From Callorhinchus milii (lineage: Eukaryota), in assembly GCF_018977255.1 (NCBI RefSeq), contig NW_024704742.1:69070001-69134000 (forward strand): DNA of 64,000 nt, given 5' to 3'. The translations under genes and the position numbers were made by a program. The notes under the pieces are model-generated. The model worked only from the letters and a program-made list of their open reading frames with translations. It did no database searches and was not told the DNA's origin. This document shows, piece after piece, positions 11,336 to 40,922 of this stretch. Every line of letters starts with the position of its first letter. The first letter of the stretch is position 1.

Positions 11336-11349
11336 TAAGTGGGCTTTAA

Positions 11350-19053: not shown

Positions 19054-19372
19054 GTGGAGTCCTGTAGCTCAGTGGTTAGAGCACTCGCTTTGCAAGTGAG
19101 AGACCTGAGTTCAATTCCAGGCAGAGGGCGAAACCTTGGGCAAGTTTCCTTACTCCACACATCTAATAATAATCCCTCCAAAACCCAAACAATAATAAAT
19201 TGTTCATTTTCAATCTACGACTGTTTGTGGGACATTGCTGTGCGCAATTGGCTGCCGCGTTCGCCCACAAATATACAGTCAATTCACTTTACAGTGTGTT
19301 CTGTGAAGCACTTTGGGACGTCCTCCCGACGTGAAAAGCGCTATATCAAATGCAAGGATTATTATTATTATT
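19054..19372 (+). mobile_element. Young tRNA-derived SINE, full length
   Basis: Same consensus as the other young copies. Confidence 0.92.
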
Positions 19373-20730
19373 TACGGGACTTCTAAACTCTCCCCTTCAT
19401 TTGGCTTAAAGCAAAAACAATGAAACTGCAATGCCCTTTCAGCGCTCACTACAGCTTAACTTCTGTGGCAAATTGAGTTTATTTTCGCTCAGTGTAAGTA
19501 AATTGAATTTGAACTGGCAGGAGAAGGGGGGGAATCACCTTCACCTTCTTTTAACTGACTCCCCATATTCTAGACATTCAAGATGCGTCTCTCCTCTCAG
19601 TCACCCGTAAGGCAATTTCATCTCAAATGGGCTATCGTTTCTGACTTTGACTAACACAAAAAATTCATTGAAAGATCCAAAGTTTGGAAGACACATTTTT
19701 GCTTGTATTAAAACTTAATGAGCTATATCATTTTGTTGCTCCAGGTTAACATGTATCAGGCATTAGGTAACATGTGGGGTAATATTAAGAGACAAGTCTT
19801 GTGTAGGCAGAGATTCAACAAGTCAAGAAGAATGGGTTTGCAAAAAGGACAACTTACAAATTTGTCCTTTTGGAGTGAAATCACCACATTCCAAAAATTT
19901 TTTTAAGGCCAATAGGACAGAGAGCTAAAAAGGACATGGCATAAAGCCTCAGAACCACACATATGAAGCTTGCAGTTGCCCATATCAGTTACTACAAGAA
20001 ACCTTTCAAACTCGACACAACAAAAAACAATAATAAAATTGGTCACTTTAATCTACGACTGTTTGTGGGACACTGCTGGGCGTAATTGGCTGCTGTGTCT
20101 TGTCCACAAATATGCAGTCAACAACAACAATTTGCATTTATACAGCGCCCTCCATGCCGGCCAGCATCTCAGAGCGCTTAACAATGGCGGAGCCCAAGGC
20201 CAAGCCGGGGGAGGGGGAAGGTGACCATAGGCACAGTCGAAGAGGAAGGTCTTCAGGGACGAACTGGAGATGGGGAAGGAAGGGGCAAAGCGAAGGGTTT
20301 GAGAGAGGAAGTTTCAAAATTTCGGGGCGTAGTGGCTGAAGGTACGGCCGCCGATGGCGGAGCGGAGGATTCAGGGGACACTGTGGAACCCGGAACCAGT
20401 AGAGTGGAAGCAGCGGGTACTGCTGTGGGGAAAGAGGAGGTTAGAGAGATAGGGGGGTGCCAAGAAATGGAGGGATTTGAACACTAGAGTGAGGATCTTG
20501 AAGTCTATCCACTCTGTGACCGGGAGCCAGTGGAGTTTGGCAAGGGCTGGGGTAATCGGGATGTGGAGTTTAGTGCGGGTAAGAATGGGGACGGTGGAGT
20601 TTTGAATGAGCTGAATTTTGTGAATAGTGGAGGAGGGGAGACGGGCGAGGAGGGTGTTAGAGCAGTCCAGCTGAGAGGTGACAAAGGCGTGGAAAAGGGT
20701 TTCAGCAGCTTTTGGTGTGAGATATTGTCA

Positions 20731-21050
20731 GAGTCCTGTAGCTCAGTGGTTAGAGCACTCGCTTTGCAAGTGAGAGACCTGAGTTCAATTCCAGGCAGAG
20801 GGCGAAACCTTGGGCAAGTTTCCTTACTCCACACAGAGCCTAATAATAATCCCTCCAAAACCCAAAACAATAATAAATTGGTCATTTTCAGTCCACGACT
20901 GTTTGTGGGACATTGCTGTGCGCAATTGGCTGCTGCGTTCGCCCACAAATATAGTAAATTTACTTTACAGTGTGTTCTGTGAAGCGCTTTGGGACGGCCT
21001 CCCGACGTGAAAAGCGCTATATCAAATGCAAGGATTATTATTATTATTAT
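20731..21050 (+). mobile_element. Young SINE nested in an L2 fragment (about 20120-21150, minus strand)
   Basis: L2 sequence is present on both flanks. Confidence 0.9.
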
Positions 21051-21234
21051 AGAGACGGGCAATGTGGTGGAGATGGAACAAAGCGATGCTGGTCAGCGAC
21101 CAGATGTGGGGGAGGAAGGATAACTGGGGATTCAACCTGACATCTAAGTTCTGCACAGATTCAGAGAGTTTTCTGTCTGTCCCTCTCTCTCTCTCACTCT
21201 CTCTATGTCTGTCTGTCTGTCTGCCGGTCTTTTA

Positions 21235-24200
21235 TGAGTGTTGGTGTGTGTGTGTTGGTGTGTGTTGGGGGGGGGGTTGGTGTGTGTTGGTGTGTGTTGG
21301 TGTGTGTTGGGGGGGGGTGGTGTGTGTTGGGGGTGTTGGGGGGGTTGGTGTGTGTTGGGGGGGTTGGTGCGTGTTGGGGGGGGTTGGTGCGTGTTGGTGC
21401 GTGTTGGTGTGTGTTGGTGTGTGTTGGGGGGGGTTGGTGTGTGTTGGTGTGTGTTGGGGGGGGGTTGGTGCGTGTTGGTGTGTGTTGGTGTGTGTTGGGG
21501 GTTGGGGGGGTTGCTGTGTGTTGGGGGGTTGGTGCGTGTTGGTGTGTGTTGGTGTGTGTGGTGTGTGTTGGGGGGGGTTGGTGTGTGTTGGGTGTGTGTG
21601 GTGTGTGTTGGGGGGGGTTGGTGCGTGTTGGTGTGTGTTGGTGTGTGTTGGTGTGTGTTGGGGGGGTGGTGTGTGTTGGTGTGTGTTGGGGGGGTTGGTG
21701 TGTGTTGGGGGGTTGGGTGTGTTGGGGGGGTTGGTGTGTGTCGGGGGGGTTGGTGTGTGTCGGGGGGGTTGGTGTGTGTTGGGGTGTGTTGGGGTGTGTT
21801 GGGGTGTGTTGGTGTGTGTTGGGGTGTGTTGGGGTGTGTTGGGGTGTGTTGGTGTGTGTTGGGGGGTTGGTGTGTGTTGGGGTGTGTTGGGGTGTGTTGG
21901 TGTGTGTTGGGGTGTGTTGGTGTGTGTTGGGGGGGTTGGTGTGTGTTGGGGGGGTGGTGTGTGTGGGGGGGGTTGGGGTGTGTTGGGGTGTGTTGGGGTG
22001 TGTTGGGGTGTGTTGGGGTGTGTTGGGGTGTGTTGGTGTGTGTTGGTGTGTGTTGGGGGGGTTGGTGTGTGTTGGGGGGGGTTGGTGTGTGTTGGGGGGG
22101 TTGGTGTGTGTTGGGGGGGTTGGGTGTGTTGGTGTGTGTTGGGGGGGTTGGTGTGTGTTGGGGGGTTGGTGTGTGTTGGGGGGTTGGTGTGTGTTGGTGT
22201 GTGTTGGTGTGTGTGTGTGTGTGTGTGGGTGAGTTGGTGTGTGTTGGTGTGTGTTGGGGGGGGGTTGGTGTGTGTTGGGGGGGTTGGTGTGTGTTGGGGG
22301 GGTTGGTGTGTGTTGGTGTGTGTTGGGGGGTTGGTGTGTGTTGGGGGTTGGTGTGTGTTGGGGGGGTTGGTGTGTGTTGGTGTGTGTTGGGGGGTTGGTG
22401 TGTGTTGGGGGGGGTTGGTGTGTGTTGGGGGGTTGGTGTGTGTTGGTGTGTGTTGGTGTGTGTGTGTGTGTGGGTGAGTATGTGTGTGTGTTGGTGTGTG
22501 TTGGGGGGGGTTGGTGTGTGTTGGTGTGTGTGTGAGTGTGTGTGTGTGTGTGTTGGTGTGTGTTGGTGTGTGTTGGGGGGGTTGGTGTGTGTTGGGGGGG
22601 TTGGTGTGTGTTGGGGGGGGTTGGTGTGTGTTGGGGGGTTGGTGTGTGTTGGTGTGTGTGTGTGTGTGTTGGTGTGTGTTGGGGGGTTGGTGTGTGTGGT
22701 GTGTGTGTGTGTGTTGGTGTGTGTTGGGGGGGTTGTGTGTGTGTGTTGGTGTGTGTGTGTGTGTTGGTGTGTGTGGGGGGGGTTGGTGTGTGTTGGGGTG
22801 GTGTGTGTTGGGGTGGTGTGTGTTGGTGTGTGTGTGTGTGTGTTGGTGTGTGTTGGGGGGGTTGGTGTGTGTTGGTGTGTGTGGGTGAGTGAGTGTGTGT
22901 GTGTGTGTGGGGGGGTGTAATCTGGAGGGGGGCAGAGCCCGCGGCCTATAGAGGTGAGGCTTGTATGCGGGTTATTAACAAATGAAGCGGTGGTGGTGGT
23001 GTGTGTGGGGGTGTGTGTGGGGGGTGTGGGGGCGCTGCTCCCCGGGGTGTGTGTGTGGGGGGGGGGGCAGGTGGGGGCGCTGCTCCCCGGGGTGTGGGGG
23101 TGTGTGTGTGTGGGGGGGTGTGGGGGCGCTGCTCCCCGGGTGTGGGGTGTGTGTGGGGGGGTGTGGGGGCGCTGCTCCCCGGGGTGTGGGGGTGTGTGTG
23201 GTGTGTGTGTGTGTGGGGGGTGTGGGGGCGCTGCCCCGGGGTGTGGGGTGTGTGGGTGTGTGTGTGTGGTGTGGGGGGGGTGGGGGCGCTGCTCCCCGGG
23301 GTGTGGGGGTGTGTGTGGGTGTGTGTGTGTGTGTGGGGTGTGTGGGGGTGTGTGTGGGGGTGTGTGGGCGCTGCTCCCTGGGGTGTGTGTGTGGTGTGGG
23401 GTGTGGGGCGCTGCTCCCCGGGGTGTGGGTGTGTTGTGTGTGGGGGGTGGGGGCAGTGTGTGGGCGCTGCTCCCCGGGTGTGTGTGTTGGGGGGGGGTGT
23501 GTGGTGTGTGTGGGGGTTGGTGTGTGTGGGGGATGGTTGGTGTGTGTTGGGGGGGTTGGTGTGTGGAAGGGTTGGGGTGTGTGTGGGGGTTGGTGTGTGT
23601 TGGGGTGTGTTGGGTGTGTTGGGGTGTGTTGTGTGTTGGGTGTGTTGGGGGGGGTTGTGTTGGGTGTGTTGGGGTGGTTGGTGTGTGTTGGAGGTGTGTT
23701 GGTGTGTTGGTGTGTGGGGTGTGTTGGTGTGTGTTGGGGGGGTTGGTGTGTGTTGGGGGGTTGGGTGTGTGTTGGGGGGTTGGGTGTGTTGGGGTGTGTT
23801 GGGTGTGTTGGGGTGTGTTGGGGGGGTTGGTGTGTGTTGGTGTGTGTTGGGGGGTTTGGTGTGTGTTGGGGGGTGGTGGTGTTGGGGGGGTTGGTGTGTG
23901 TTGGGGGGTTGGTGTGTGTTGGTGTGTGTTGGGGGGGTTGGTGTGTGTTGGGGGGTTGGTGTGTGTTGGGGGGTTGGTGTGTGTTGGTGTGTGTTGGTGT
24001 GTGTGTGTGTGTGTGTGGGTGAGTATGTGTGTGTGTTGGTGTGTGTTGGGGGGGGGTTGGTGGTGTGTTGGGGGGTTGGTGTGTGTTGGGGGGGTTGGTG
24101 TGTGTTGGTGTGTGTTGGGGGGTTGGTGTGTGTTGGGGGTTGGTGTGTGTTGGGGGGTGGTGTGTGTTGGTGTGTGTTGGGGGGTTGGTGTTGTGTGGGG

Positions 24201-24965
24201 GGTTGGTGTGTGTTGGGGGGGTTGGTGTGTGTTGGTGTGTGTTGGTGTGTGTGTGTGTGTTGTGGGTGGTTGTGTGTGTGTGTTGGTGTGTGTTGGGGGG
24301 GTTGGTGTGTGTTGGGTGTGTGTGGTGTGTGTGTGTGTGTGTTGGTGTGTGTTGGTGTGTGTTGGGGGGTGTGGTGTTGGGGGGGTTGGTGTGTGTTGGG
24401 GGGTTGGTGTGTGTTGGGGGGTTGGTGTGTGTTGGTGTGTGTGTGGTGTGTTGTGTGTGTGTTGGGGGTGGGTGTGTGTTGTGTGTGGTGTGTGTTGGTG
24501 TGTGTTGGGGGGGGTTGGTGTGTGTTGGTGTGTGTGTGTGTGTGTTGGTGTGTGTTGGTTGGTGTGTTGGGGGGTTGGTGTGTGTTGGGGGTGGTTGGTG
24601 TGTGTGGTTGTTGGTGTGTGTGTGTGTGTGTTGGTGTGTGTTGGGGGGTTGGTGTGTGTGGGTGTTGTGGGTGAGTGAGTGTGTGTGTGTGTGGGGGGGT
24701 GTAATCTGGAGGGGGCAGAGCCCGCGGCCTATAGAGGTGAGGCTTGTATGCGGGTTATTAACAAATGAAGCGGTGGTGGTGGTGTGTGTGTGGGGGTGTG
24801 TGTGGGGGGGTGTGGGGGCGCTGCTCCCCGGGGTGTGTGTGTGGGTGTGGGGGGGCAGTGTGGGGGCGCTGCTCCCCGGGGTGTGTGTGTGTGGGGGGGG
24901 GTGTGTGGGCGCTGCTCCCCGGGGTGTGGGTGTGTGTGTGTGTGGGGGTGGGGGGGCAGTGTGGG
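21235..24965. repeat. About 3.7 kb of GT/G-run tandem repeat (GTGTGTGTTG(G)n units) at the start of SUCLG1 intron 1, with GGGGGCGCTGCTCCCCGGGG sub-arrays
   Basis: Visible directly in the sequence. It is the source of the V/C/G/W-rich spurious ORFs. Confidence 0.97.
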
Positions 24966-24976
24966 GCAGTACTCAC

Positions 24977-25007
24977 GGAGGAGGCGGCTCAGCAGCAGCA
25001 GCGACAT
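24977..25007 (-). CDS. SUCLG1: Succinyl-CoA ligase alpha subunit, coding exon 1 (MSLLLLSRLL+C, start of a mitochondrial-type presequence)
   Basis: ATG at 25007 in a CpG-rich segment, with a consensus donor C|GTGAGT in phase 1. It joins exon 2 in frame to give [22 protein letters not shown], which resembles human ...RLLSRSFLLPQNGIRHCSY. Confidence 0.85.
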
Positions 25008-25325
25008 CCTCACCCCCTCAGCGCCGCTCCCAATGACAGCGCCAGGACCCCGGCAAGACAGGGCGCCCCACCCCCGCCTGACACACTCACACACACACCC
25101 ACGCCGACCCAATCAGTCATACGCCGGTTAATCTTGTAACGAAAAGATTAGATTAAGGTCGGTCTATGTTTCAATCAAAGAAAAAAAAACCCCGCTCCAG
25201 GCTTTGGGTTGTTTATCTGGCTTTATTTGTGGACAAAATGAGGTGAGGGGGGGGGGCGGTCCTGTCCTGCCCGCGCTGGCTGCTGGGAGATGTAGTTCCT
25301 TGTCCTCTTCCCCTCCCATTGGCGA
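25008..25325 (-). promoter_or_regulatory. SUCLG1 promoter/5' UTR with CCAAT boxes, a GC box and a ZNF143/THAP11-type (SBS) motif
   Basis: CpG-rich. CCAAT at about 25030 and 25109, ATTGG at about 25318, GGGGCGG at about 25253. AACTACATCTCCCAGCA on the minus strand at 25281-25297. Confidence 0.7.
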
Positions 25326-26354
25326 CTTCACTGCTTTGCTGATCAGTTCCAAGCGCTTCATGAACCACCTGCAAAGACACGCAGCACCTGTCACATGGCA
25401 GCAACTGGGGGGTGGGGGGCAGAGACAGGCTGCAGACCTGGAGGGGTTGTATAGTGATGGCACTTTCATGGTTTCCGAGAAGGAACGAAACAACGACAGC
25501 AGATGACATGTGTACAGAGAGGCTTTCACATCAGCAGCACATCACCAGTTGCTGGACAGTCACATAACAATCCCTCCCCCCAAACCAAAAGCAATAATAA
25601 AAATTGGTCATTTTCAATCTACGACTGTTTGTGGGACATTGCTGTGCGCAATTGGCTGCCGCGTTCGCCCACAAATGTACAGTCAATTCACTTTACAGTG
25701 TATTCTGTGAAGCGCTTTGGGACGTCCTCCCGACGTGAAAAGCGCTATATCAAATGCAAGGATTATTATTATTATTATTCTCACCCCAGCTGGGGTTGCG
25801 ATCAAGAAAGGTGGAGACCCAGAGCGTAGGGGTAGGAGAATGACCGCTTTGAGATGACTGGACTCTCTAACGTACAGAACCAAAAGTTATTGTTTTTACC
25901 TGAGTTTTTTTACGAAGAGTTTTTCCCGCACTGGAAGCCGGAGCTTCACTTTTGCCCCCGACAACTGGATCCAGGGAAAGCTTTGTGCAGGAGCTAGTAA
26001 AGGCTATTAACCATGTATTTTATTATATAATAATAATAACAATCATTGCATTTGATATAGTACTTTATCACGTCGTTGAGACATCTCAAGGCGCTTCACA
26101 CGATATACAACAAAGTGGAATGACTGTATTTTGTGGACAAAACACAACAGCTATTTGCACACAGCAGTGTCCCACAAACAGTTGTGGATTGAGTAACCAG
26201 ATTTATTTTTGAGGTATTATGACCCCAGCAAAGTGAGCCGCCAATCGACTAGTAACCAGCTTCCTACTCACTGTTAGGTAAACAGAGTCATGTGGACTAA
26301 GGAAACTTGCCTCAGGGTTTATTCTGTGAGTAGACCAATGATTAAACACCTCCA

Positions 26355-27670
26355 TCTTTACTAATAAAGACAAAATGTCTGTCTCTCTGCCCATCAAGAA
26401 CACAATAACCCATTGACGTAGAAACATGATTTATACCACTGGAAAGATCTTGCATGGGAGAGTATCATAGGCACATTTTTTGGGAGGATCTCCTATGTTG
26501 ATGAGCTTAAGCCCCCAAATATGAGGTATGCATGGTGTACAAAACCACACACCCTTCTACAGAGATATATCTACTAATATATTCTGCAACAAAGTGACAA
26601 CAGTAGTCCTCCCACAGGAGTACACCCAACAAGGAGTCCTTCCAATCATGAGTCCTCCCACAGGAGTCCTCCCAAGCACGAGTCCTCCCACAGGAGTCCC
26701 CCTAACAGGAGTCCTCCCACTGTGTCTTCCCACTCAGTCCTCCCAACAGGAGTCCTCTCAATAGCACATTTTCTTAATCTTAAAGATGCCTGAGTGAAGA
26801 TCAAGCCTTTCAAGGACAACTAAAAACGCTAGGCAAAAGAGAGAAGGCAGATTAACTGACACTGAAGAAAAAATAACAGCACAGTTGGACTTCAACACAG
26901 AAAGGCATGCAAAACATAGCAAAATGATGCCCAGCAGCAGAGGTCACTCCATTTAACTGCGCTCAATTGTGATCCAGGCAGAGACTACAAATAAAATGGC
27001 CCCCATCATATTGGGAATATGTCGAGCCGTATGTGCTCATTGTGGAGCCATGAAATGGGCAAAAGAAGTTCCTTCCATGTGTTGCTCGCTTGGCCAGTTG
27101 AAATCAGAGCGACTCACAGAGCCACCTGAAACCCTGAAAAGTCTAAGCATTTTCTAGCAAACCTTAGGAAATACAATTTATGCTTCCAGATGACCCCTTT
27201 TGGCGCAACTAGAGAAATTAAGAAGTCAGAATTATGCTAATAATTACCTAATGAGTTGCCAAAATTCTTACAGATTACTTCATGACGAACCGATGAAGAA
27301 CAAGTCATGCAGCATGGAAGCAATGTTCTGGAGTTGAACAAAGCCCTCATACTAGATCTGCAAAGCATGCTTCACAGCAGTAACACGTACGTCAGGAGCT
27401 TCAAGCCCGCAATGGAAAAAATGACTATAAAAATGAATATAGAATAAGCATCCATTCAGGCAAGACACCTGCTGGCCAGCACGAGCAGTGGTACAATGCA
27501 CCAACTACTGATGAAGTAGCCATCCTGATTCTGGAGTAAAAACTGCAAATGTCATTTACATGGTAACCTTGCAATAACTCGAGGACCTGCCGGATCAAAC
27601 AGTGAACCCCTTTGATTAGCCTAGCATTGAAAGGATCTTCTATCGTCCATGAGCTATGACCCATTGCACC
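26355..27670 (+). mobile_element. Decayed, internally deleted Helitron (5' end plus N-terminal RepHel fragments)
   Basis: A|TCTTTACTAAT 5' terminus. Peptides CAHCGAMKWAKEVPSMCCSLG...EPPETLKSL, HFLANLRKYNLCFQMTPFGA, PKFLQI, LQSMLHSSNTYVRSFK, HEQWYNAPTTDEVAILI and SYDPL occur in the correct order across frameshifts. Confidence 0.85.
26605..26762 (+). repeat. Imperfect tandem repeat built on GAGTCCTCCCA inside the Helitron
   Basis: The AGTCCTCCCA/GGAGTCC unit recurs about 8-10 times. Confidence 0.75.
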
Positions 27671-28079
27671 TGTATGGCAGGTTTGTTTAAGGTGTACACA
27701 CAGTGTTTATAATAACAATAATAATCCTTACATTTGATATAGTGGTTTATCATGTTTTCTAGACGTCTCAAAGCGCTCCGCAGAATATATTGTAAAGTGA
27801 ATTGCCTGTATAATTTGTGGGTGAAACGCAGCAGCCAATTGCGCAGAGCAGTGGCCCACAAACTCGTGGATTGAAGTGACCATTATTTTTTTTAAGGAAT
27901 TATTACCCCCGGAAAAGGGATCTACCAATCGATTAACAACTGGGTTCCTACTTACTGCTAGGTAAACAGGCGTGTGGAGTAAGGAAACATGCCCAACATT
28001 TCGCTCTGACGGGAATCGAACTCAGGTCTCTCGCTTGCGAGGCAAGTGTACTAACCACTGAGCCACAGGACTCCACGTT

Positions 28080-29960
28080 CTCTAACCAGGACTCTAACCT
28101 CTACAGACTTATGGCATGCTATCTCGTTATCTATCACACTCCCCCAAGCTCTCCCCCACCTTCCTCCCCGACATTTCCACCCTCCTATCTTCCCTCTCCC
28201 TCTGCTTCAAACGTTTCCTCATCCTAGGGGACTTCAACCTTCACTTCACCCCCTCCTGCTCTACCTCTGTTGACTTCTACTCCCTTATCTCCTCCCTCAA
28301 CCTCTCCGTCCACAGTCACCACCTCGACCCAGTGATCACTCGGGGCCTCACCATCACCAACAAAGCGATCTCGGACCATCACTTCATCTCCCTTAACTCC
28401 TCAATCCCTCTTCCCATTGCCACCCAACCCACCTCCATCTCCTACTGCCCCTGGAAAAAAATTTCCCCCACACTCTCTGTTGCCTTGGAGTCATCTGAAA
28501 TCCTCCCACTCTGGGCTTCTTCCCGCAATGACCTATCCTCCTTAGTCACCCTCCTCCACAGCTCCCTCTCCTCCATTCTTGATTCCCTTGCTCCCTTCTC
28601 TTCCCAAACTGACACCTACTCGCGAAAGTAACTATGGTACACCAGCCACCTCCGCTCCCTTAAAGCACAAGTGCATGCCACTGAACACATCTGGCTTGAA
28701 TCAAACTTAACGGTCCATCGGCAGACCTGGCTAGACCTTATCAAATCTTACTGCTCGGCCCTCGCCTCTGCTAAATCGTTGTTCTACTGCAAGACAAACT
28801 TGAAGGCCAAGGACAACCCCAGGCTCTTCTCCATCACCAACTGACTCCTCTGCCCACACTCTTATCGCTCGCCCATCCTCTCATCCAACGCCAACTGCAA
28901 GGCGATGCTGGACGTCCTCGAATCCAAAGTCGAGGAGATCCGCTCAGCTGCCTGTCCTGTCATCTACTACGCCCTCCCCATCTCCCCCTCACACCCTGGT
29001 CTCTACCCATCCCTCCCTCCACACCTTTCAACCTGTCTCCCACTCCTCTCACCACCACTATAACCCGCATGAAACCAACCACCTGCTCCCTCGACCCCAT
29101 CCCTACCCCTCTCCTTACCTCCTAGCTCCACCTCCTTGTCCCTCTACTCATAGACATCATAAACCTTTCCCTGTCCACTGGTTCCATTCCCACCCCTTTA
29201 AAGACGGCCACCATCACTCCTATCCTTAAAAAACCCCTCCCTGGACCCATCTCTACTCAAATTAGCGCCCCCATCTCCAACCTCCCCTTCTTTTCCAAGG
29301 TCCTGGAATGAGTTGTTGCTTCTCAGCTTTGCTCCTTCCTTTCCCGCCACTGCCTTAGTGCGAACTCCTCCAATCCGGTTTCCATGCCGCCCACAGCACA
29401 GAAAAAAAACCCTGGTCAAAGTGACAAATGACATTCTGTCCATCTGCGACCAGGGCTTCCTCTGCCTCCTCATCCTCCTTGACCTCTCTGCTGCCTTCGA
29501 CACCGTTAATGACTCTATCCTCATCCACCACCTCTCCTCTCACCTCAACCTTCATGGTTCTGTCCTCGAATAGTTCAGACTGTACTTCTCACACTGCCTC
29601 CACTTCTTCTCCACAAACGGTTTCTCCTCTAGCCCCCATAGCGTCTCGTGCGGTGTTCCTCAGGGCTCTGTCCTTGGTCCCATCCTCTTCAATATTTATA
29701 TGCTCTCTCTTGGTGACCTCATCCGCAGATTTGGTGTCAACTTCTACATGGAGGCGGATGACACCCAATTCACACCCTTGACTCCAGAACCACTGCTGTA
29801 ATGACAGAATGTCTATGAGACATCAAGTCCTGGATGAGAGCGAACTTTCTTCAGTTGAACATCAACAAGACCCTCCTCTTTGACCATGCTTTCGATCACC
29901 CTTCACCCTCCACTGCCCTCCACCCTCCCCGACCCCTACACTCAGCTCAGGTCCAAATTG
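28080..29960 (+). mobile_element. Decayed L2 LINE ORF2 (APE endonuclease plus RT)
   Basis: Motifs [42 protein letters not shown] and ADDTQ, broken by stops and frameshifts. Confidence 0.92.
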
Positions 29961-30750
29961 TCCAATGCCTTGGGAGTCCCTAAACAGCGCCACCCTCTGA
30001 TAACTAAAGGCACTGCAGCCATAAATAACAATAATCTTTTTGCAGTTGATATATCACCTATCACGTCTTCAAGACATCTCAAAGCGTTTTACAGGATATA
30101 CACTAAAGTGATTGTATATTTTATGAGTGAAAAGTGCAAACAATTCTTGATGCTTTGAATTTTTGACCACCTTTTAATAAACCTTGCAATGTTTCAACAC
30201 TTATAACATTGAATGTCACCAAGCACTTCACAGAGAACTGCTGTACCATGCAATATAGTGACTGTGCATCTGTAGGTAAACGCAGTAACCAATTTGCGCA
30301 CAGCAATGTCCCACAAACACCCATGACTGTGAACTCAAAGTCCCGATGTAGGGCTTGAATCCACAACTTGTTGATCGAGGGACGAGAGGCTATTGACTGA
30401 GCCAGATGCGGAAGTTTCTTGGTGACTTCTTCCAAATTAGTCTAAGCTGACACTTCAGTGCTTGAGAGGCAGTACTGTCCTTGGGATGATACATTAATAA
30501 TATTTAGTCTCAAATCACTTCACAGAATATGAATTGTATATTTTGTGGGCAAAAGGCAGCAGCAAATTGCACAGCAATAAAAAACGAGGTCCCATCTGTG
30601 CCTGTTCAGGTGAAATAGCTGACCGAACTTATTCCACCCCCACTCATATCCACTCGTTTCTCCTCTTCCTCCCCCCACCACTGATCCACCAACTGAGACA
30701 GGAGTAGATCAGCAGCATTGAAGAGACCAGGCAAATCCAATCACATTCTT

Positions 30751-30756
30751 TTTATT
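30751..30756 (-). terminator. Likely RPIA polyadenylation signal AATAAA (3' UTR about 1.2 kb)
   Basis: AATAAA on the minus strand at the end of the non-TE stretch below the stop codon. Weaker ATTAAA variants lie at about 31626 and 31681. Confidence 0.6.
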
Positions 30757-31932
30757 AAGGAGGGTATGTTGTTCATTGATCCAGTGCACAGCAGTCACTC
30801 CTGTACAAAGTAGAGCAGTGATCCACCAACATACAGGTATAAATTGAGTATATAAAATTCTCGGTACAAAAATGCTCATTTGCCCCAACCCTCACTCCCT
30901 CCAGAAACTTGCTGGAGGCAAAAGCAGCATAAATAATATAAACTTTGGAACCAAGCAAATGCATCAATCAATGAATCCCGAGTTGTGCGTTTTAAGGCAG
31001 TAAAGGACTGACTGAGCACAGACTTTGACCTACACTAAGGCACGTGAGCAGACAAGGGGAGTGGAGGGGGAAGGAGTGGGGGGTGGGGGGGAGAGAGAAG
31101 GAAGGGAGGTGTGGAGGGGGAAGGAGAGGCGAAAGGGAGTTTGCCTGCACAGTAACCACATTTAAGACTTTACAGAGCAAATGTCACTCTGGAGGGTTCA
31201 TTTGTCGTCCCAGGCAATTGCCAAAGATAATGATCCTTAAAAGGATTTGCATTTGATACGGCGCCTGCCTTGTCGCATTGACAATAGCTACCCAGGTATC
31301 ACTAGAAGGTGTGGTGACAGTGTTTGTTTGTAGGTGAGATTCTCTCTCCGCAGAGTTTCTGGTTTAACCTCTCCCTGGGTTCAGGATATCTCGGATTGTG
31401 TCAAAGGTGCCTTCCCCATTCAGGACGGTCAGAGATGGGATTAAGCCAGGCAGAAACGTCTCATCTCTTATGGGAATCAGGGGCCCTTACGCAACACCTC
31501 CTATTAGTTCAGTTGTACAAAGGGACCCATTGATGGCATTCGACAAGTGGCCAGAATGGTGGGGAGGGGGTGCGAAGTGGGAGTGGAAGGAAAAGAGGGA
31601 GGGAGAGGGGGCAGGACTTGGCGTTTTTAATAAAGCAACTAGGTGACTGATGTTTCTTTTTGGAAAATCAAAAAAATGTTTTTAATCTGTACAATTAAAA
31701 CAATATAAAATGTAAAAAGAATATAGTATTTGGCTTGTTGAAGGCTCGGAAAGCAAGGCAACTTGGATCCTGGTGAAGGAGGAGGCAAGAATGAGACGCT
31801 CTCTCTCTCTCTTTCGTGTTCTCTTTCGTGGTGTCTCTCGTATCATCTCTCTCGGTTTCATTGTCGTCTCTCTCGTTTTCTCTCGATCTCATCCTGGTCC
31901 TCTCTCACTCTCTCCCTCCCCTGTGCTCGCTG

Positions 31933-32030
31933 TCATTGGGACGGTCTCTCTCGAACCTCCACCGTGCCGTCCTCCATCCCAAAAAACACCTTCTCCGCCA
32001 GGTCAATGAATAAACCCGTCTCCACCACTC
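31933..32030 (-). CDS. RPIA: RPIA exon 9, coding part ([32 protein letters not shown])
   Basis: 98 nt ending in TGA. The nine exons sum to 714 nt (237 aa plus stop from MAPETE) with consistent phases. Confidence 0.98.
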
Positions 32031-32532
32031 CTGTGAATTTCAGTAAATTGGTTCAGTAATTGGGAGCCAGTGGAGCCTGGCAAGGACTGGAGTGATGTGG
32101 CTAGAGTTTTTTGCAGGTGAGTATCCAGGCAACAAAATTCTGTATTAATTGGATTTTGTGTATGGCGAATAGAATTTCAGCCTCCAAGCCCTTACCCTCC
32201 TCTCCTCCTACCCCACCGACCACCAGCCATGTGTAGCTCAATTACCCCCATCCGGCACCACAGGCTCCCCATCCTCCAGAACATAGAGTTCAAACTCCAT
32301 CTCAGAGTCCCTCCGCCTCACCCCCTCCGTTACCTCCTTCCAAGACCTTCCTCTTTGCCCTGCCCTCCACCCCTCCAGATCTTAAATTCTGACTGTCCAG
32401 CGCCTTGGGACGTCCTCCCGACACGAAAGGCGAAATTACAAATTACAAATGAAATTACAAATGTAATTTGCTGTTATCGTTGCCCTAACCACCCTGAGTG
32501 CATGGCCTCAGGCCCGAGTGGACGGTCCCCAC

Positions 32533-32632
32533 CTGGTAACATTTTAATGCTGCAGTGCACAGTCTTCCAGTCAGACACTTTCTCAAACTTCCAGTCCAGG
32601 ATGAAGTTCCCATTATCAGTCACCAGCGGGCC
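32533..32632 (-). CDS. RPIA: RPIA exon 8 ([33 protein letters not shown])
   Basis: 100 nt, TDNGNFILD motif. Confidence 0.98.
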
Positions 32633-33057
32633 CTGCAATCAATAATAATAATAATCCTTGCATTTGATATAGCGTCTTAATGTGACATTGAGGTCTAAAA
32701 GCGCTTCACGGAATACTATAAAGTGAATTAACTATATTTTCTGGGCAAAATGCGGCAGTTAATTGTGCACAGAAATGTCCCAGTTGTGGATTGAGTTACC
32801 AATTTTTTTTAAAAAAAGGGATTATTACTCTCAGAAAGCGATCCGCCAATCGACTAACAACTGGGGTCCTTCTTACCGCTAGGTAATCAGAGGTGTGTAG
32901 AGTAAGGAAACTTGCCTAAGGTTTCGCCTTGACCAGGAAACAAACCTGGGTCCTCTCGCTTGCGAGGCGAGGGTGCTAACCAGCATGCACAGGTTGGCTG
33001 AGTTTTGTCGGGTTCCTGAAACACCTAAGTTTCCAAACGCATCACTCCCCCACTTAC

Positions 33058-33199
33058 AGCTTTGCTGACAGCCATTCTCAGCTCCGCCACACCTCCAAAT
33101 CTGGCTGCTATGGTCCTGGTGAGCGGGAGGTAAGCCTTTGGGATGACTTCGATCGGAATTCCTCTTTTCCATTTCTCTCCAAGGCATTTGGAAATTTTT
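33058..33199 (-). CDS. RPIA: RPIA exon 7 ([47 protein letters not shown])
   Basis: 142 nt, cag|...GCT|gtaagt, PIEVIP motif. Confidence 0.98.
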
Positions 33200-33805
33200 C
33201 TGTATACAGTACAACAATTATTAGCATTTACACAGCACTCTTCACTTGGAGTAGTCCTGGAGCGCTGAACAGTAGCAGAGCATGACTCCAAGCCAGGGAG
33301 AGAGGGGGGGATGGCTAAGCAAGATCAAAGATGAAGGTCTTCGGACACAATCTGAAAAAGGGATGGAGGGGGCAAGACGGAGGGATTGGGGGAAGAGAGT
33401 GCCAAAGCTTTGGGGCGTATTGGCTGAAAGCTCTGCTGCAGATGGTGGAATGGAGGAGATGAGGGACAAGCAGGAGGCCAAAGTCAGCCAAGCGGAGGCA
33501 GCGGGTAATGGAGTGTGGAATAAGCAGGTCTGAAAGGTACGGAGGTACCAGGGCATGAAAGGATTTGTAGACGAGTGAGAGGATCTTGAAATCCATCTGT
33601 TCTGTGATAGGGAGCCAGTGGAGCCTGGAGAGGACTGGTGTGATGGGGGTATGGAGTTTAGAGCAGGTGAGTATTCTGGCAGTAGAGGTCTGACAGTTTT
33701 GACAGATGTGGGTTGGGAACAGGCAGCTAAGTAAGTAGTCAGACAGATGGCGTAGTCATCTATTTGGAAGAACAATAAATATTGATAAAGAAATGGTTCT
33801 CTCAC

Positions 33806-33874
33806 CTGTAATCTGCAATGACAATGAATTTTTTCGCACAGCTGGCAACGATCTTCTCCTGAGTCAAACAGCCT
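33806..33874 (-). CDS. RPIA: RPIA exon 6 (GCLTQEKIVASCAKKFIVIADYR)
   Basis: 69 nt, AG/GT ends, EKIVA motif. Confidence 0.98.
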
Positions 33875-34389
33875 CTGTGAGGACAGAAGAGGGCAGCAAT
33901 GTGATTGTTCAGTCGGTTGGTCGGTCTTTTGGATATTTGCTTCAAGAAGCAAATGGCAATTAAGAAATTGCTTATCAGAAGAAAACAGGATATAAAGGGC
34001 AGTGGGAGTGGGACCAGGGGTGTGGGCTGATGGTTGGAATATTGGAGTGTTGTGACAGAGAATAAAGGAATTACTTCATACAACAGTTTTGTGGACTGAG
34101 AATCATTACAGGTCGTTAAGTCGCACACATGAACACAGCAAGTCATAACTTACACACAACACAATCTGCTAGTCACTCACTCAGTCAGTCTCACACTCGA
34201 CACAAGCCCCTCCGCCCCACCACCCTTATATATATCCCACATCTTTAATTCCCAGGCTTTTGTGTCATAGGCTTTTGTGGAATCCTATAGCGTATTGGTT
34301 AGAGCATTTGCCTCGCAAGCGTTTAAGGATTATTATTATTATATCATATCCAACACACAGCATGACTGACAGCTCAGTGTAAAACTTAC

Positions 34390-34454
34390 CCTCCGCCTTT
34401 GATCAAGTTCAGATCATTGTCCACCTCATCTGCACCATCGATGGCCAAATCTAG
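34390..34454 (-). CDS. RPIA: RPIA exon 5 (LDLAIDGADEVDNDLNLIKGGG)
   Basis: 65 nt. Contains the RpiA signature motifs DGADEV and IKGGG. Confidence 0.99.
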
Positions 34455-34639
34455 CTGAAAGCCAGAGTGAGACAGTCACACAGCCCAAAACACAAACCCA
34501 TCACCGTGCTCAAGAGTCCCCAAACCAAACTGAGCTATCCAACAACAACTTGCATTTATTCTCAGAGCGCTTAACAATGGCGGAGCCCGAGGCCGAGCCA
34601 GGGGCAGGGAGAAGGTGACCATAGTCGTGGTCAGAAATG

Positions 34640-35060
34640 GACATGTGCACATGGAAATCCCAGGGATAGACTGTTGGAATGAAATGCGCTCTCTCTCACT
34701 GGAGGAACACATCCTGCTTAGCTAATCCCGGAAAATATTAGGTGCAGGTTGGCAAAAGCCAAAGCTTGGGGACCCCAGAGTTTGCGTTGGAGTAACTACT
34801 GGAGTCTAACCAGCTAAAACTACACAGGTTGCCATTGATAGCATTGCCTGGAAAGCTGCTTGTCCAGCTAGGGCCACCCTACCCTTTAGAGCTTTGGTTT
34901 GCAGGGTTAACAGGAGCTGAGTGTGAGCATTCCCTGCCCCGAGTGACTAGTCTGCCCTTCTAAGTCCTGCCGATGAGCCAGGCTGGGCTGTGCTGTCATC
35001 AGCAGTTTGCTGAAGTATTGCAGACCTGTCTGGCTCAGAAACCAGACTAAAGACCAAGCG
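34640..35060 (+). repeat. Unclassified old dispersed repeat; overlapping fragments at about 990-1275, 3146-3225, 8160-8260, 36185-36355, 36583-36910, 38300-38485, 42050-42310 and 17460-17520 (minus)
   Basis: Shared blocks include TTGGTCAGCCGGGTGTCTGACACATG, CACATGGAAAT, TAACCAGCTAAAAC, AGCTAGGACCACCCT, CCTGCCGATGAGCCAG and GGCTCAG.AACCGGACTAGAGAC. Confidence 0.75.
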
Positions 35061-35084
35061 TTGGAGATCTAACGGGGATATTAC

Positions 35085-35144
35085 CTCAGGATATTGGTCC
35101 AGATCACTCAGCGGCAGCTTGTTCTGCAAGATCAGCTGACGAGC
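35085..35144 (-). CDS. RPIA: RPIA exon 4 (ARQLILQNKLPLSDLDQYPE)
   Basis: 60 nt, aag|...GAG|gtaata. Confidence 0.96.
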
Positions 35145-36380
35145 CTTTGAACACAAAGAGGCACAGAGTATAAATCATGTCTCGGGCATTCCCTGCACAT
35201 CACAGTCTAATCAACAAGCAAGTTATTGTTTCTTAAATCAGGGAGAGGGGTGGGTCTGAGGGCAATCAGAGGATCTTCACAAGAATGTTTAAAGGAGCCT
35301 CTGAGGTTAGACAACATTTCGGGGGTTAGTCACCGGCACAGAACATACTATAAAGTGAATTGACTGTATTTTATGAGTGAAATGTGCAGCTAATTGCGTA
35401 CAGCAGTGTCCCACAAAGAGTCATGGTTTGAATGATCAAATTTATTTGTTTAGTTTTTGGAGTGATCATTACCCCCAGAAACCGATCTGCCAATCGACTA
35501 CTAACAGGGTTCCTACTTACAGAGGCGTGTGGAGTAAGGAAACTTGCCTAAGGTTTCGCCCTGGCCGGGAATCGCACCTAGGTCCTCCCGCTTGTGAGGC
35601 GAGAGCTTGAACCAATATGCTACAGGAGTGCACTAGTTTCTTCACATCAGGACTTTGAAGCTCACAGTCTAGGCTGACATTCCAGCACAGTGCTGAGGGG
35701 GAGGAACTATCCGCAAAGAGAAGGGAGTTTCTCTCACTCAGTGTCCTGAACAACACTTGCCCCTGATAAAATTGGTCACTCACTCTATGGCTGTTTGTGG
35801 GACATTTGCTGTGAGAAAAAANGGCCGACACATTTGCCCACAAAATACACAGTAACTACTTTGCAGTATATCTTGTGAAGCGGTTTGAGATGTCCCGACG
35901 GAATGATAAGGCAAATGCAAGGATTATTATTCTTCAGACCTTTCAGTTCACTATAAAAATATGATCAGAAAATAATAATTTTGGTCTCGTTGTGACAGTC
36001 GATTAGTTAGCACCGCCAGTGAAATTCACACCAGTTACTCTAGTACTGCATTGGCTATAGATTCAAAGTGTTGTTTTAGCTTTATACCCACTTGAAAAGA
36101 GCCCTCACCCCTGCCCCCAGTCTAAGCCCCTCCCCAGTTCCCCCCCTCCAATCGCCACCCCAAGGTACCCAGAAAATTGGGGGGAGTTTTTTGGTCAGCC
36201 GGGTGTCTGACACATGCGGAAACCCATTGCCATGCTTAAAGAGTATCCACTCGACCCACCAACACATGAAAATTCTCCTATCTGGAATGGAATGCACATT
36301 CTCTCCCTGAAGACACACACTCTGCTTACCTAATTCCGGAAAGTATTAGGCGCTGGTCCAATACTTAAGAATCATCTTAC

Positions 36381-36436
36381 CTGGAAGGAGCTGGGTACAC
36401 ACACCACCTTCAGACCATCCTTTTGCACCCGCTCAG
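36381..36436 (-). CDS. RPIA: RPIA exon 3 (AERVQKDGLKVVCVPSSFQ)
   Basis: 56 nt, cag|...CAG|gtaaga, frame continuous with neighbours. Confidence 0.96.
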
Positions 36437-37987
36437 CTGCACAGAACACAAACATGATGTTACACAGACAAAATCACAAAAACCTCACTGCCTTGCACAT
36501 CTGCTGCATGGGAGAGAGGGAAAGAGAGAGAAAGAGAATTACAGAGAAAGGGAGAGTGAACAAAGGAAAAAGTGTAAGTCAACTTTTTCCGGTCAGCCGG
36601 GTGTCTTACACAAGCCCATCACTATTAAGTTAAGAGTATCCAAACCAGAGTTCCCTTCATGCCACCTGCACATGGAAATTTCCATGGAACACACATTCTG
36701 TCCATGGTGGGACGCTTATTTAATTGTGGGGAGTATTTAGGCTGGCAAAAGTTGGTGTAACAGCTGGAGTTTAACCAGCTAAAACCACATAGCTTGGCAT
36801 AGTGAGCACCATCTGGCAAGCTTGTTGCTGCTTATCCAGCTTGTCCACTCTACCCGTTAGGGATTTGGTTTGTAGGGTTAACAGGAGCTGAGTGGGAGGA
36901 TTCCCTGACTCCACGTCCTGCCAAAACCCCTTTCCCACAGTATTTGAAATTATGAGATTTTCTGCTGATTATACTGTTTTGTCTCACACCAAATTCACCC
37001 CCAAATGTAGCAACATTCAGCTGCTCAGCCCATTGTTGGGCACTGGATGTCGCTGGAGCAGATTGGCCCACAAATACAGTCACTCCACTTTACAGTGCAT
37101 CTTGTGAAGCACTTTGAGACGTCTCAACATTGTGAGTTACCGATCCGGTGGCACTGTACGAAAAGAGACGGGAGTTCCTCTCTCCCGGTGTCTGGGCCGA
37201 CAATCCCCCAAATAAGATTGGTCACTCACTTTGTGGCTGTTTGTGGGGTATTGCTGTGTGTAAATTGGCTGCCATGGTCCCCTACAAAATACACAGTCAC
37301 TCCACTTTACAGTGAATCCTGCAAAGTGCTTAAGAGATGACTGATAAGGCTTGATATCAAATGCAAGGATTATTATTATTATTACTACAGCTTTTGTTAT
37401 ACAGTCTAATCGGGGGGCAAGGAAGGGGCCTGGGACGAAGCAGACAGGAAGTGCATAAAGCTCGATTCCACAATCTTCTGACCCAGAGCTTTAATACTCC
37501 CGATATCATTAGAATTAATAATACTAATAATAATCCTTGCAGTTCATTATCATGTATTCCGAGACATCTCAAAGCGGTTCACAGAATATACTGTAAAGTG
37601 AATTAGTTGTATTTTGTGAGCAAAACATGACAGCGAATTTCACACAGCAGTGTCCCACAAACAGTCGTGGATTAAGTGACCAAATTATTATTATTTTGAA
37701 GTGATTATTATCCCCAGAAAAGCGATCCGCCAATCAACTAACAACCAGGTTCCTACGTACTGCTGGGTAATCAGAGACGCGTGGAGTTAAGGAAACTTGC
37801 CGAAGATTTCGTTCTGCCCGGGAATCAAACCCGGGTCCTCTCGCTGGCGAGGCAAGTGCTATAACTGATACGCTACAGGATTCCACAAATGCATTTGTCA
37901 TAGCATGAGGAGAAAGCTGAGACCAGTGTAGAAGGTACTGACTAGAAGGTACATGTCAGACAATCTCGCTCGTTCGCTGACACTTAC

Positions 37988-38048
37988 CTATTCTCTTTAC
38001 AGCGTGAACAATTGTGGAGCCACTGCCAATCCCCAGGACTTGGTTATT
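37988..38048 (-). CDS. RPIA: RPIA exon 2 (NNQVLGIGSGSTIVHAVKRI)
   Basis: 61 nt, AG/GT ends, GIGSGST motif. Confidence 0.98.
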
Positions 38049-40626
38049 CTGTGACAGAAAATACAAACTAAGGTCCACAGCCATCCACATCATGAATATG
38101 ACACCTTTACAATGGCATGCCACACCTTGCTTACACATACACCTTACACAGTGTAAAGAAAGTTAAAATGAATAAAATGTTAACACTGTACTGAAAAACA
38201 CTGTGTCCTTGACCTTGTTTACAAGGAATGTGACTTCTGATAAGGAGAATTGGAAAACACACTTGGAAGAAAATATTTTAGTTAGCATCCATCACATGGA
38301 CTTTTGTTTTGGTCAGCCGGGTGTCTGACACATGAGTAATGATGTCTAACCATCACCATGCTTAAGAGCATCCAAACTAAACTGAAAATTCCATGCATCC
38401 CACCTACACATGGAAATCCCAGCTGTCTGGCAAGCTTTCCTGCTATTTGTCCAGCTAAGACCCTACCCATTAGGACTTTGGCTTGCAACAGCAACAACAA
38501 ATTATATTTGCATAGCACCTTTCACGTCAGGAGGACCTCCCAAGCTGGGGGTTGGGATCAGGAGGGGTGGATGACAGGGAGGGTAGGGGTAGGAGGGCGA
38601 GGGAGGGATCAAGGCGAAGGGGCTGTGAGATGGAGTTCCAAAGGGTGGGGGCAGAGAGGCTGAAAGCCCAACCGCCGATGGTGGGGTGGGCCGGGCAGGG
38701 GACCTAGCGCAGGGAGCTGGCGTAATAAAGCCTAGCAGTGATAAATGCATGGATGGGATTTTGGGGGTCTGAGGGGGGTGAGGCAGTAGCGGAGCCGGGT
38801 GATAATGTGGAGGTGGGGGAAGGCAGAGCAGGTCATGGCATGGATGTGGAGTAGAAAGGGTAGTTGACGGTCGAACAAGACGCAAACGCACAACTTACGC
38901 ACACCTTACACATGGCACACATAGGCTTACACACATTTTATGCACTCCGCACCAACACATTACCCATTCCCCTCCGAGCTTACACACATCACGCTTACAA
39001 GTTATACAAAAACTATAGTTATTACACGTACACACGGGTTACATGGATACTACCCATCCGGCGTGAAGAGCACTATATAAGTGCAAGTTGTTGTTGTTAT
39101 ACATGCGTACAATGATCATAACAACTTGCATATATGTGCATGGATATAGTACCCTTCACCCAGGGCAGCGTCTCTCACACAGGCACAAAAAATAACGATA
39201 CAACTGCACACACATCCACAAAGTTACACCCACACCTGTAAAGAGTTAGCAAACATATCACTCTGCCTTTCGGGGTGGGGGGGGGGAAGGGGTTCCCACA
39301 CAGCCTTGCAGAATGTGTTTCTTGTGATCACTGTGGCCCCCACCCTCTCTCCTCCCCTTCTCTCGCATTCCTTAATAAATCCTTTCATAAATCGACACGT
39401 TTCACTCCCCCTACTCACTGTTACTGCAGCCTGAATCTCTCACTCCCCCCCACAGGGCGCATAGGAGCAGGAAGAAACCATAGCCTACCCCACCAGTTTA
39501 TGAGAGCAGTGCAGAGTTCCTAACCCCATTTCCTTATTTATAAAGGATGTATTTAAAGAATGTACAGCACGGAACCGGTCTGTGCCGATATTTATACTCT
39601 TATCTCTTTGAAAAAATGCATTTTAGATGTCAGCCTGGCTCGGTTGGTAGCACTCTCTTCTCTGAGTCAGAAGGCTGTGGGTTCAAGCCCCACATTACTT
39701 CGTTGAACTCACAGTCTAAGATGACATTCCAATACAGTACCGCAGGGAGCTCTGTACTGTTAGATGTGCTGTCCTATGGATGAGACATTAAACCGAGATC
39801 CAGTCTGCCTGTTCAGGTAGACGTTAAAGGTCCCATGGCACTATTTGAGAAGAGAAGGGCGTTTCGCTCACCAGGTGTTCTATCCAACAGTCCCGCAGGT
39901 AAAATCCGTCATTCACTTCACGGCTGTGAGACATTCTGTGTGCAAATTGGCTACCATGTTTGCCTACAAATGCACAGTCATTGCACTTTACAGTAAGATC
40001 ATGTGAAGTGCTTTAACATGTTCCAAACGCTTTATTCAGGACTTAGAATAATAATACCTGCATTTGATATAGCGCCTTCGAGATGTCTCAAAATGCTTCA
40101 CACAATATACTATAAAGTGAATTGACTGTATATTTTGTGGGCGAAACGCGGCAGCCAACAGTGCCAGCAGCGTCCCCACGGCCGTGGACTGAGTGACCAA
40201 ATTATCATTATATTTTTGCGGCAAGAAACCAACATTTGCAACCTGCCAAGCAAACCTTTGAATTATTCTCCTTTTTAAAAAGAATCGCTAAATAAAGGGA
40301 CGAGAGTGGTTTCTGGGAGGAGGGGTGGAGAAGAGAGAAAGAGGAATAAAGTTCACAAGTAGAAACCCCGGGGATAATATTCCATGAAGCGCTTTGAGAC
40401 GCCTGGAAGACACGATAAGGTGCTATTTCAAATGCTAGGGTTGCTCTTATTATCTCGAACACAAGGAGCTGGGCTGAAGAGCAGATGCAAAACCCACAGG
40501 TTAAAGTGAAGCAATGATTTTAAAAGGAAGTTATGTGTGTGTGTGGGGGGGGGGGGGGGTGGAGGGGGGGTATTTGCACTGAGGCACCCACTGCATTGCA
40601 TGAAAAAAAAGAGCAAAACTGCTTAC

Positions 40627-40689
40627 TTGCACATACTTGTCCACAGCCATGTAGGCAGCTCTCTTTTTAGCCTCTGTCTCTGGCGCCAT
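40627..40689 (-). CDS. RPIA: Ribose-5-phosphate isomerase A, exon 1 (MAPETEAKKRAAYMAVDKYVQ); may start at the in-frame ATG at 40779
   Basis: Matches human EEAKKLAGRAAVENHV. Donor CAA|gtaagc. Confidence 0.93.
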
Positions 40690-40922
40690 AGCAGAGCCTT
40701 GGCTCAGCCTTCTCTGAACCAGGAGGAGCAGGGAGTGTCTGACACAAACCACACTGACACCAGGAAGCCCCAGACACATTGCTGAGCCACCCCCCACTCT
40801 CTCCCTGAACAACCACAGGCCCAGCCCCTGTACAGCAGCAGCAGCAGCACCTCCCCCACCCACTGCCTCTCTCCCTCTCTCCAGCTGGAGCCAACGCTCT
40901 CACTCACTCACTCACTCACCCA

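What the first reader, a model, noticed from the sequence alone, without database searches (positions are those of the whole stretch)
25008..30760. Empty Ig-kappa site: RPIA and SUCLG1 are only about 5.7 kb apart
Seen: the likely RPIA poly(A) signal (30751) and SUCLG1 exon 1 (25007) are separated only by a promoter, SINEs, a dead Helitron and an L2 fragment. I see no V, J or C exon and no credible RSS. Known (from memory, needs verification): human IGK lies directly beyond RPIA, and comparative studies use RPIA and SUCLG1 as the genes flanking the kappa translocon in tetrapods, with the site empty in birds. Inference: in this apparent cartilaginous fish, whose Ig genes are normally in dispersed clusters, this may be the ancestral pre-insertion state. 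That would date when kappa arrived at this locus and narrow its landing site to a few kb.
Basis: partly seen in the sequence, partly recalled or inferred. Interest (0 to 1): 0.7.

Follow-up and report, generated by a model that had tools for sequence, protein, structure and literature searches.

The report
Empty antibody kappa site in chimaera
In the elephant shark, the gap between two housekeeping genes where frogs, reptiles and mammals keep their kappa antibody light-chain genes is only 5.7 kb of promoter and old transposon debris, which fits, but does not prove, the idea that kappa moved to this address later in evolution.

Summary
The window is elephant shark (Callorhinchus milii) DNA by its RPIA match. 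The SUCLG1 start codon (25007) and the RPIA poly(A) signal (30751) lie 5,744 bp apart. About 74% of the gap is repeats: four SINE-like copies, a broken Helitron and a broken LINE. No immunoglobulin match was found in 192 of 192 ORFs or 6 of 6 frames, and the one weak RSS-like hit is at chance level. Two DNA runs match the unique pieces, but no contig spans the gap.

This species has kappa genes, so they lie elsewhere; the site is not empty through total loss, as in birds or axolotl. An ancestral empty site is my best reading (about 55%). One outgroup cannot separate it from loss of a cluster in the chimaera line, and no shark, ray, gar, coelacanth or lungfish genome could be read here. The claimed few-kb landing site is overstated: the gap is mostly lineage-specific repeats, so only gene order is informative. 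Modest interest.

The parts
24977..25007 (-). SUCLG1 first coding exon (31 bases, phase-1 donor at 24976)
   Evidence: In frame with the next exon at 7618 or 7612; region GC 0.57, CpG o/e 0.66; gene identity from downstream exons. No transcript was seen joining the two exons.
25008..25563 (-). SUCLG1 5' UTR and promoter-side unique DNA
   Evidence: No self-match in the window; covered by X1 contig piece 24967-25611 at depth about 8. Promoter function is inferred from position.
25564..25784 (.). SINE-like copy a (young, 90-95% like its closest copies in the window)
   Evidence: Self-BLAST; read depth in the millions. Family not named by any tool.
26022..26320 (.). SINE-like copy b (older)
   Evidence: Self-BLAST, 69-82% identity
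26605..26760 (.). Short tandem repeat
   Evidence: Self-match; visible
27005..27602 (+). Dead Helitron Rep/helicase N-terminal fragment, spread over three frames
   Evidence: 116 relatives at E <= 0.001; 15 of the 15 long ones scanned carry Helitron_like_N or PIF1; tblastn back to the window to E 4e-26
27699..28079 (.). SINE-like copy c; its edge gives the only RSS-like hit (perfect heptamer, 12 spacer, nonamer with 3 mismatches in the A/T tail)
28080..29960 (+). Broken LINE ORF2 remnant (L2-like; clade label recalled)
   Evidence: Pfam RVT_1 E 1.5e-8 at 29574-29798 and 3.4e-11 in the whole frame; PDB reverse transcriptases; depth thousands of times the unique level
29961..30333 (.). SINE-like copy d
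   Evidence: Self-match at 30021-30333; left boundary set by eye
30751..30756 (-). RPIA poly(A) signal AATAAA
   Evidence: Only AATAAA in 30300-31940. RNA-like run X6 has contig pieces 30653-31085 and 31089-32033; contigs cannot show an RNA end.
31933..32033 (-). RPIA last coding exon and stop
   Evidence: Pfam Rib_5-P_isom_A; aligns to P0001 residues 232-265
32531..40740 (-). RPIA, the eight upstream coding exons found
   Evidence: tblastn of P0001, P0019, P0051, P0062
54549..54769 (+). Probable EIF2AK3 exon 1, head to head with RPIA
   Evidence: Signal-peptide-like ORF in a CpG island. The name rests on a recalled motif and the published gene order; two searches found no match.

Best explanation
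The 5.7 kb is an ordinary intergenic spacer: the end of RPIA, transposon debris, then the SUCLG1 promoter. It has no immune function (shown, within the limits of the scans). The order EIF2AK3-RPIA-SUCLG1 is an old neighbourhood, shared by this chimaera and chicken (RPIA-SUCLG1 shown here; chicken from the literature). Kappa is older than the split of cartilaginous and bony fish, but most likely sat elsewhere as V-J-C miniclusters. On the line to tetrapods a kappa cluster was copied or moved into this gap, with C next to RPIA, and its V genes then expanded towards SUCLG1 into the translocon (inferred). The chimaera would then show the site before arrival, and chicken the site after loss.
For: No Ig domain in 192 of 192 ORFs or 6 of 6 frames, none in SUCLG1 intron 1 from 7612 to 21250, no octamer in the gap and no RSS above chance. 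C. milii has kappa, so the gap is not empty through loss of the isotype. Cartilaginous-fish IgL genes are miniclusters of variable number (PMC12227049; PMC3308330). Kappa loci vary in number and place in ray-finned fish: three in sterlet, LG28 plus unplaced scaffolds in gar (PMC5985310). C. milii keeps gene order well, with 93% of scaffolds one to one with chicken chromosomes (PMC3964593). Chicken shows the same adjacency and Xenopus has SUCLG1 upstream of kappa.
Against: One species only. Kappa has been lost repeatedly (birds, bats, lizards in PMC13320880; axolotl), so an empty site is a common derived state. A minicluster is small and could be deleted without trace in some 400 million years. 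The neighbours of gar, bowfin, sturgeon, coelacanth, lungfish and shark kappa loci were not found in 10 literature searches, so the fish data do not show that kappa is away from RPIA there. The Xenopus order SUCLG1-kappa-RPIA is my combination of two papers. The scans have no Ig positive control, and Pfam and PDB both missed the real Helitron remnant, so a very decayed Ig exon could also be missed.
Confidence: 0.55

Rival explanations
1. A kappa cluster stood between RPIA and SUCLG1 in the ancestor of jawed vertebrates. It was deleted or moved in the holocephalan (or whole cartilaginous-fish) line while other kappa clusters survived, and it grew into the translocon in bony vertebrates.
For: Kappa is lost often. 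Cluster numbers in cartilaginous fish range from one to about 100, so single clusters come and go. The gap has been heavily rewritten by transposons.
Against: No remnant found. C. milii is reported as slowly evolving with few rearrangements. These points are weak: a clean old deletion leaves nothing.
Confidence: 0.28
2. The comparison is with the wrong interval. SUCLG1 is not the true far flank of the ancestral kappa site, and the RPIA-SUCLG1 contact here says little about where kappa stood, because the far side of the locus is a rearrangement-prone break.
For: SUCLG1 lies 4.0 Mb (human) and 2.4 Mb (mouse) from RPIA and on another chromosome in anole; it was not found in alligator. IMGT-type and bat papers use other far markers such as ST6GAL2. 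The Xenopus figure spans 2.1-8.0 Mb, so SUCLG1 need not abut the V genes.
Against: The same contact in chicken and chimaera, with SUCLG1 upstream of kappa in Xenopus, is most simply one ancestral contact. The RPIA side alone already shows that no kappa C gene follows RPIA here.
Confidence: 0.1
3. The short gap is an assembly collapse or misjoin at a repeat that dropped an Ig cluster.
For: No listed contig spans the stretch; 4,173 of 5,753 bases lie outside the listed near-exact pieces; the best run holds 0.49 of the sampled words. Ig clusters are hard to assemble, and long simple-repeat arrays lie close by.
Against: No N in the gap (the only N is at 35822). Both ends are tied to their genes by X1 contigs (24967-25611; 30299-31050). 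Inner pieces 25789-26055 and 26507-26753 match in both DNA runs at depth 6-8. Most repeats in the gap are old and diverged, and the one young copy is about 220 bp.
Confidence: 0.07

Closest known systems
Kappa-free RPIA-EIF2AK3-SUCLG1 block of chicken (PMC4762898, section 15 read)
   Same: SUCLG1 beside RPIA and EIF2AK3 with no light-chain gene.
   Different: Birds lost kappa altogether after it stood there; C. milii has kappa elsewhere and is an outgroup to all tetrapods. The chicken gap size was not given in what I read.
Xenopus tropicalis kappa (rho) locus, chr1 (PMC9911811 passages and legend S13; PMC4762898)
   Same: Same marker genes: SUCLG1 upstream, RPIA as a flank.
   Different: Occupied by a V-J-C translocon of about 0.8 Mb; here 5.7 kb with no Ig.
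Kappa-free syntenic regions of axolotl and Artibeus/Eptesicus bats (PMC9911811, PMC12664418, passages)
   Same: Flanking genes kept, no kappa.
   Different: Derived losses inside tetrapods, with no kappa found anywhere in the assembly.
SCPP-free Pkd2-Sparcl1 interval of C. milii (PMC3964593, passage)
   Same: Same logic in the same species: an empty interval read as the state before a bony-vertebrate gene cluster arose.
   Different: SCPP genes are absent from the whole genome and arose in place by tandem duplication; kappa exists in C. milii and would have had to move.

Membership tests
Ig kappa locus (cluster or translocon) | V exon encoding a V-set domain | tested here: not met
   No V-set or antibody match in 192 of 192 ORFs and 6 of 6 frames. 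The only beta-sandwich hit was an Fn3-like family at E 0.23.
Ig kappa locus (cluster or translocon) | C exon encoding a C1-set domain | tested here: not met
   Same calls; no C1 motif in the regex scan.
Ig kappa locus (cluster or translocon) | J segment (FGxG) behind a 23-spacer RSS; V before a 12-spacer RSS | tested here: not met
   4 F/W-G-x-G hits, none beside an RSS-like hit. One weak 12-spacer hit at 27699 at a SINE edge behind the Helitron; chance 0.30 +/- 0.65.
Ig kappa locus (cluster or translocon) | Promoter octamer upstream of V | tested here: not met
   5 exact octamers in the window, 0 in 25008-30760.
Ig kappa pseudogene remnant | Similarity to chondrichthyan kappa V/J/C by tblastn | not testable with these tools
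   No Ig sequence could be fetched as a query; profile and PDB scans stood in, without a positive control.
Orthologous site of tetrapod IGK | Lies at the 3' end of RPIA | tested here: met
   RPIA exons, stop and poly(A) signal. Which end of RPIA faces IGK in human is recalled.
Orthologous site of tetrapod IGK | SUCLG1 on the far side | tested here: met
   This marker holds for chicken and Xenopus but not human, mouse or anole.
Orthologous site of tetrapod IGK | EIF2AK3 head to head with RPIA | tested here: inconclusive
   Exon-1-like ORF at 54549; no tool match.
Ancestral pre-insertion site | Empty also in elasmobranchs and, for a later date, in basal bony fish | not testable with these tools
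   No vertebrate genomes are held; the metagenome scan gave no useful vertebrate locus among 34; nothing in 10 paper searches.
Ancestral pre-insertion site | Unbroken in the assembly | tested here: inconclusive
   1,580 of 5,753 bases under listed near-exact pieces, none spanning.
Helitron | Similarity to Rep/helicase proteins | tested here: met
   Termini and hairpin were not looked for; the piece is a dead fragment.
L2 clade LINE | Clade placement of the reverse transcriptase | not tested
   RVT_1 shown; the L2 label is recalled.

The most novel reading that the evidence does not exclude
The address of IGK beside RPIA is a late insertion. The RPIA-SUCLG1 gap was empty in the jawed-vertebrate ancestor and still in the ancestor of bony fish, and a kappa cluster moved in only on the lobe-finned line. 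Ray-finned (gar, sturgeon) and tetrapod kappa translocons would then sit at non-orthologous places and may have been built separately, and the closeness of IGK to CD8 on human 2p11 (recalled) would be an accident of landing rather than a relic of a primordial immune complex.
Probability: 0.35. Interest if true: 0.55.

Novelty: new member of a known kind. Interest (0 to 1): 0.3.

Why it matters
It gives the first outgroup point, in what I could search, for when the kappa light-chain locus came to sit beside RPIA. Published synteny work I could read stops at tetrapods. If sharks and rays are also empty, kappa's tetrapod position is secondary and the move can be bracketed by reading the same gap in bichir, gar, coelacanth and lungfish. 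That is cheap to do with public assemblies. The result would refine, not overturn, the accepted view that cartilaginous-fish Ig genes are scattered miniclusters, and a specialist would probably expect it.

Tried and rejected
No whole genome is held for this window, so kappa clusters elsewhere in C. milii could not be located. The metagenome scan with P0001 returned 34 loci, none with the exon layout seen here on the table given; I did not open them. Homologue search with the first Helitron ORF found nothing among 14 candidates; the profile-free library search then did. The RPIA 63-aa piece had no PDB match. The EIF2AK3-like exon found no match. Rfam: 0 matches in 24960-32100. Run search: no RNA holder listed on record. 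Laying at 82% likeness let repeats swamp the joint and loose-end tables, so those were not used; organism B (X19) showed no long unique piece among the 8 listed, so a second species could not be read. The RSS-like hit at 27699 was rejected (chance level, SINE tail). Chance-level Pfam and PDB hits (E 0.03-0.6) were ignored. An alternative SUCLG1 first exon nearer exon 2 would widen the gap; 7612-21250 was therefore scanned and has no Ig match. 21250-24960 (simple repeat) and 32100-64000 were not scanned for Ig domains. Not held: Das et al. 2010 Mol Biol Evol, Saha et al. 2014, Flajnik 2024, Criscitiello and Flajnik 2007. Earlier scan notes: none near, none by words, none in relatives.
Full report
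What the window is. A 49-residue RPIA exon is 100% identical to Callorhinchus milii RPIA (P0001); the best other hit that carries a species name is a lizard at 80%. Nine coding exons from 40.7 to 31.9 kb align to P0001 in order. So the animal is a holocephalan, not a shark or ray. Earlier scan notes put JCHAIN, fibrinogen, YTHDC1, CAMK2D and HGFAC on the same piece (unchecked); from memory these share chicken chromosome 4 with RPIA.

The two genes. SUCLG1 is on the minus strand. Four of five downstream exon pieces hit Pfam CoA_binding or Ligase_CoA, and one hits solved succinyl-CoA ligase alpha chains at E 2e-36. The candidate first exon has its ATG at 25007 and a GT donor at 24976, and reads in frame into the next exon at either of two acceptors. 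I saw no transcript joining them. RPIA is also on the minus strand, with its stop at 31933-31935 and the only AATAAA of 30300-31940 at 30751. RNA-like run X6 has near-exact contig pieces over 31089-32033 and 30653-31085; the first carries 269 further letters beyond the exon edge, as a spliced RNA would. The distance from ATG to AATAAA is 5,744 bp. An ORF at 54549 is probably EIF2AK3 exon 1, but that name is recalled and two searches found no match.

What fills the gap. By self-BLAST and boundaries partly set by eye, 4,249 of 5,753 bases (74%) are repeats: four SINE-like copies, a short tandem array, a Helitron-bearing segment and a LINE remnant. The Helitron call is confirmed: 116 relatives, of which I scanned 15 long ones and all 15 carry Helitron_like_N or PIF1; they align back over three frames at 27005-27602. 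The LINE shows RVT_1 and PDB reverse transcriptases; its L2 label is recalled.

No immunoglobulin. All 192 stop-to-stop ORFs of 20 residues or more were scanned with Pfam at E up to 1: no V-set, C1-set or other Ig family, and only RVT_1 above its cut-off. Six whole frames with X at stops gave only RVT_1 in Pfam and no antibody chain in PDB (8 reverse transcriptases, two chance hits, three blanks). SUCLG1 intron 1 from 7612 to 21250 has no Ig match either. The RSS scan found 3 weak hits in 64 kb, 1 in the gap, against 0.30 +/- 0.65 in 300 first-order Markov resamples; its nonamer has 3 mismatches and lies in a SINE's A/T tail. No exact octamer lies in the gap. Against this: I had no Ig positive control, and the same scans missed the real Helitron remnant, so a very old frameshifted Ig exon is not excluded.

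Assembly. The gap holds no N. In two DNA runs of organism A, listed near-exact contig pieces cover 1,580 of 5,753 bases, tie both ends to their genes and match two inner unique pieces at depth 6-10. No listed piece spans the stretch, most records were not shown, and these are short-read-type contigs that break at repeats. A collapse is unlikely but not excluded.

What the literature gives. PMC4762898 (passages and section 15): RPIA and EIF2AK3 flank kappa in human, mouse, anole and alligator, RPIA in Xenopus; chicken has SUCLG1 beside them and no light-chain gene; SUCLG1 is about 4.0 Mb off in human, 2.4 Mb in mouse, on another chromosome in anole. PMC9911811 (passages, supplement legend S13): SUCLG1 is on the upstream flank of Xenopus kappa; axolotl lacks kappa. 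PMC5985310 (passages): elephant shark has kappa; gar kappa V genes are on LG28 and unplaced scaffolds; sterlet has three kappa loci. PMC8423624 (one legend, supplement passages; one file unreadable): bowfin kappa on scaffold 11, neighbours not given. PMC12227049 (passages, supplement passages) and PMC3308330 (passages): cartilaginous-fish IgL genes are miniclusters. [quoted passage not shown] PMC12664418 (passages): bat kappa loss. PMC3964593 (passages; the one supplement file held had nothing on Ig kappa): strong synteny with chicken. Ten searches found no paper on RPIA or SUCLG1 neighbours in cartilaginous or bony fish. The library lacks most subscription papers; four relevant ones were not held, and unseen supplements may bear on novelty.

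Reading. Shown: an Ig-free, repeat-filled 5.7 kb gap at the place that corresponds to tetrapod IGK, in a species that has kappa. Inferred: this is the old state, and a kappa V-J-C cluster was later copied or moved into the gap on the line to tetrapods and expanded there (0.55). The main rival is deletion of a resident cluster in the chimaera line (0.28); a wrong far marker (0.10) and a collapse (0.07) follow. One outgroup cannot decide between the first two, because empty kappa sites arise often by loss. If ancestral, the arrival falls between the split from bony vertebrates (about 450 million years ago) and the frog-amniote split; that is a bracket, not a date. The gap's DNA is mostly repeats of this lineage, so it marks a gene-order slot and not a landing sequence.

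Verdict. Real and correctly described, ordinary as sequence, useful as one comparative data point. New member of a known kind (kappa-free syntenic site), with the twist that this one may predate the locus. Interest 0.3.

Noticed in passing
window 46161-46204 (minus) and 53900-54780: The public RPIA model P0001 starts at 40779, upstream of a good acceptor at 40739. A CpG-rich candidate exon at 46204-46161 splices in frame onto 40738, and another ATG lies at 53974 in the CpG island shared with the EIF2AK3-like exon. The annotated N-terminus is probably wrong.
   Followed up: partly
window 7612 and 7618: SUCLG1 exon 2 has two in-frame acceptors 6 bases apart.
   Followed up: no
window 21200-24960 and 54800-59000: Long G/T-rich array at the start of SUCLG1 intron 1 and C/T-rich arrays just behind the EIF2AK3-like exon: both follow a first exon directly and look noisy.
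   Followed up: no
window 30653-30750: An RNA-like contig of run X6 extends about 100 bases past the AATAAA at 30751; read-through or a later cleavage site is possible.
   Followed up: no
window 36476: The only perfect RSS nonamer in the window lies in an RPIA intron with no heptamer at a valid spacing.
   Followed up: yes
window 35822: Single N in the window, inside a SINE-like copy in an RPIA intron.
   Followed up: no
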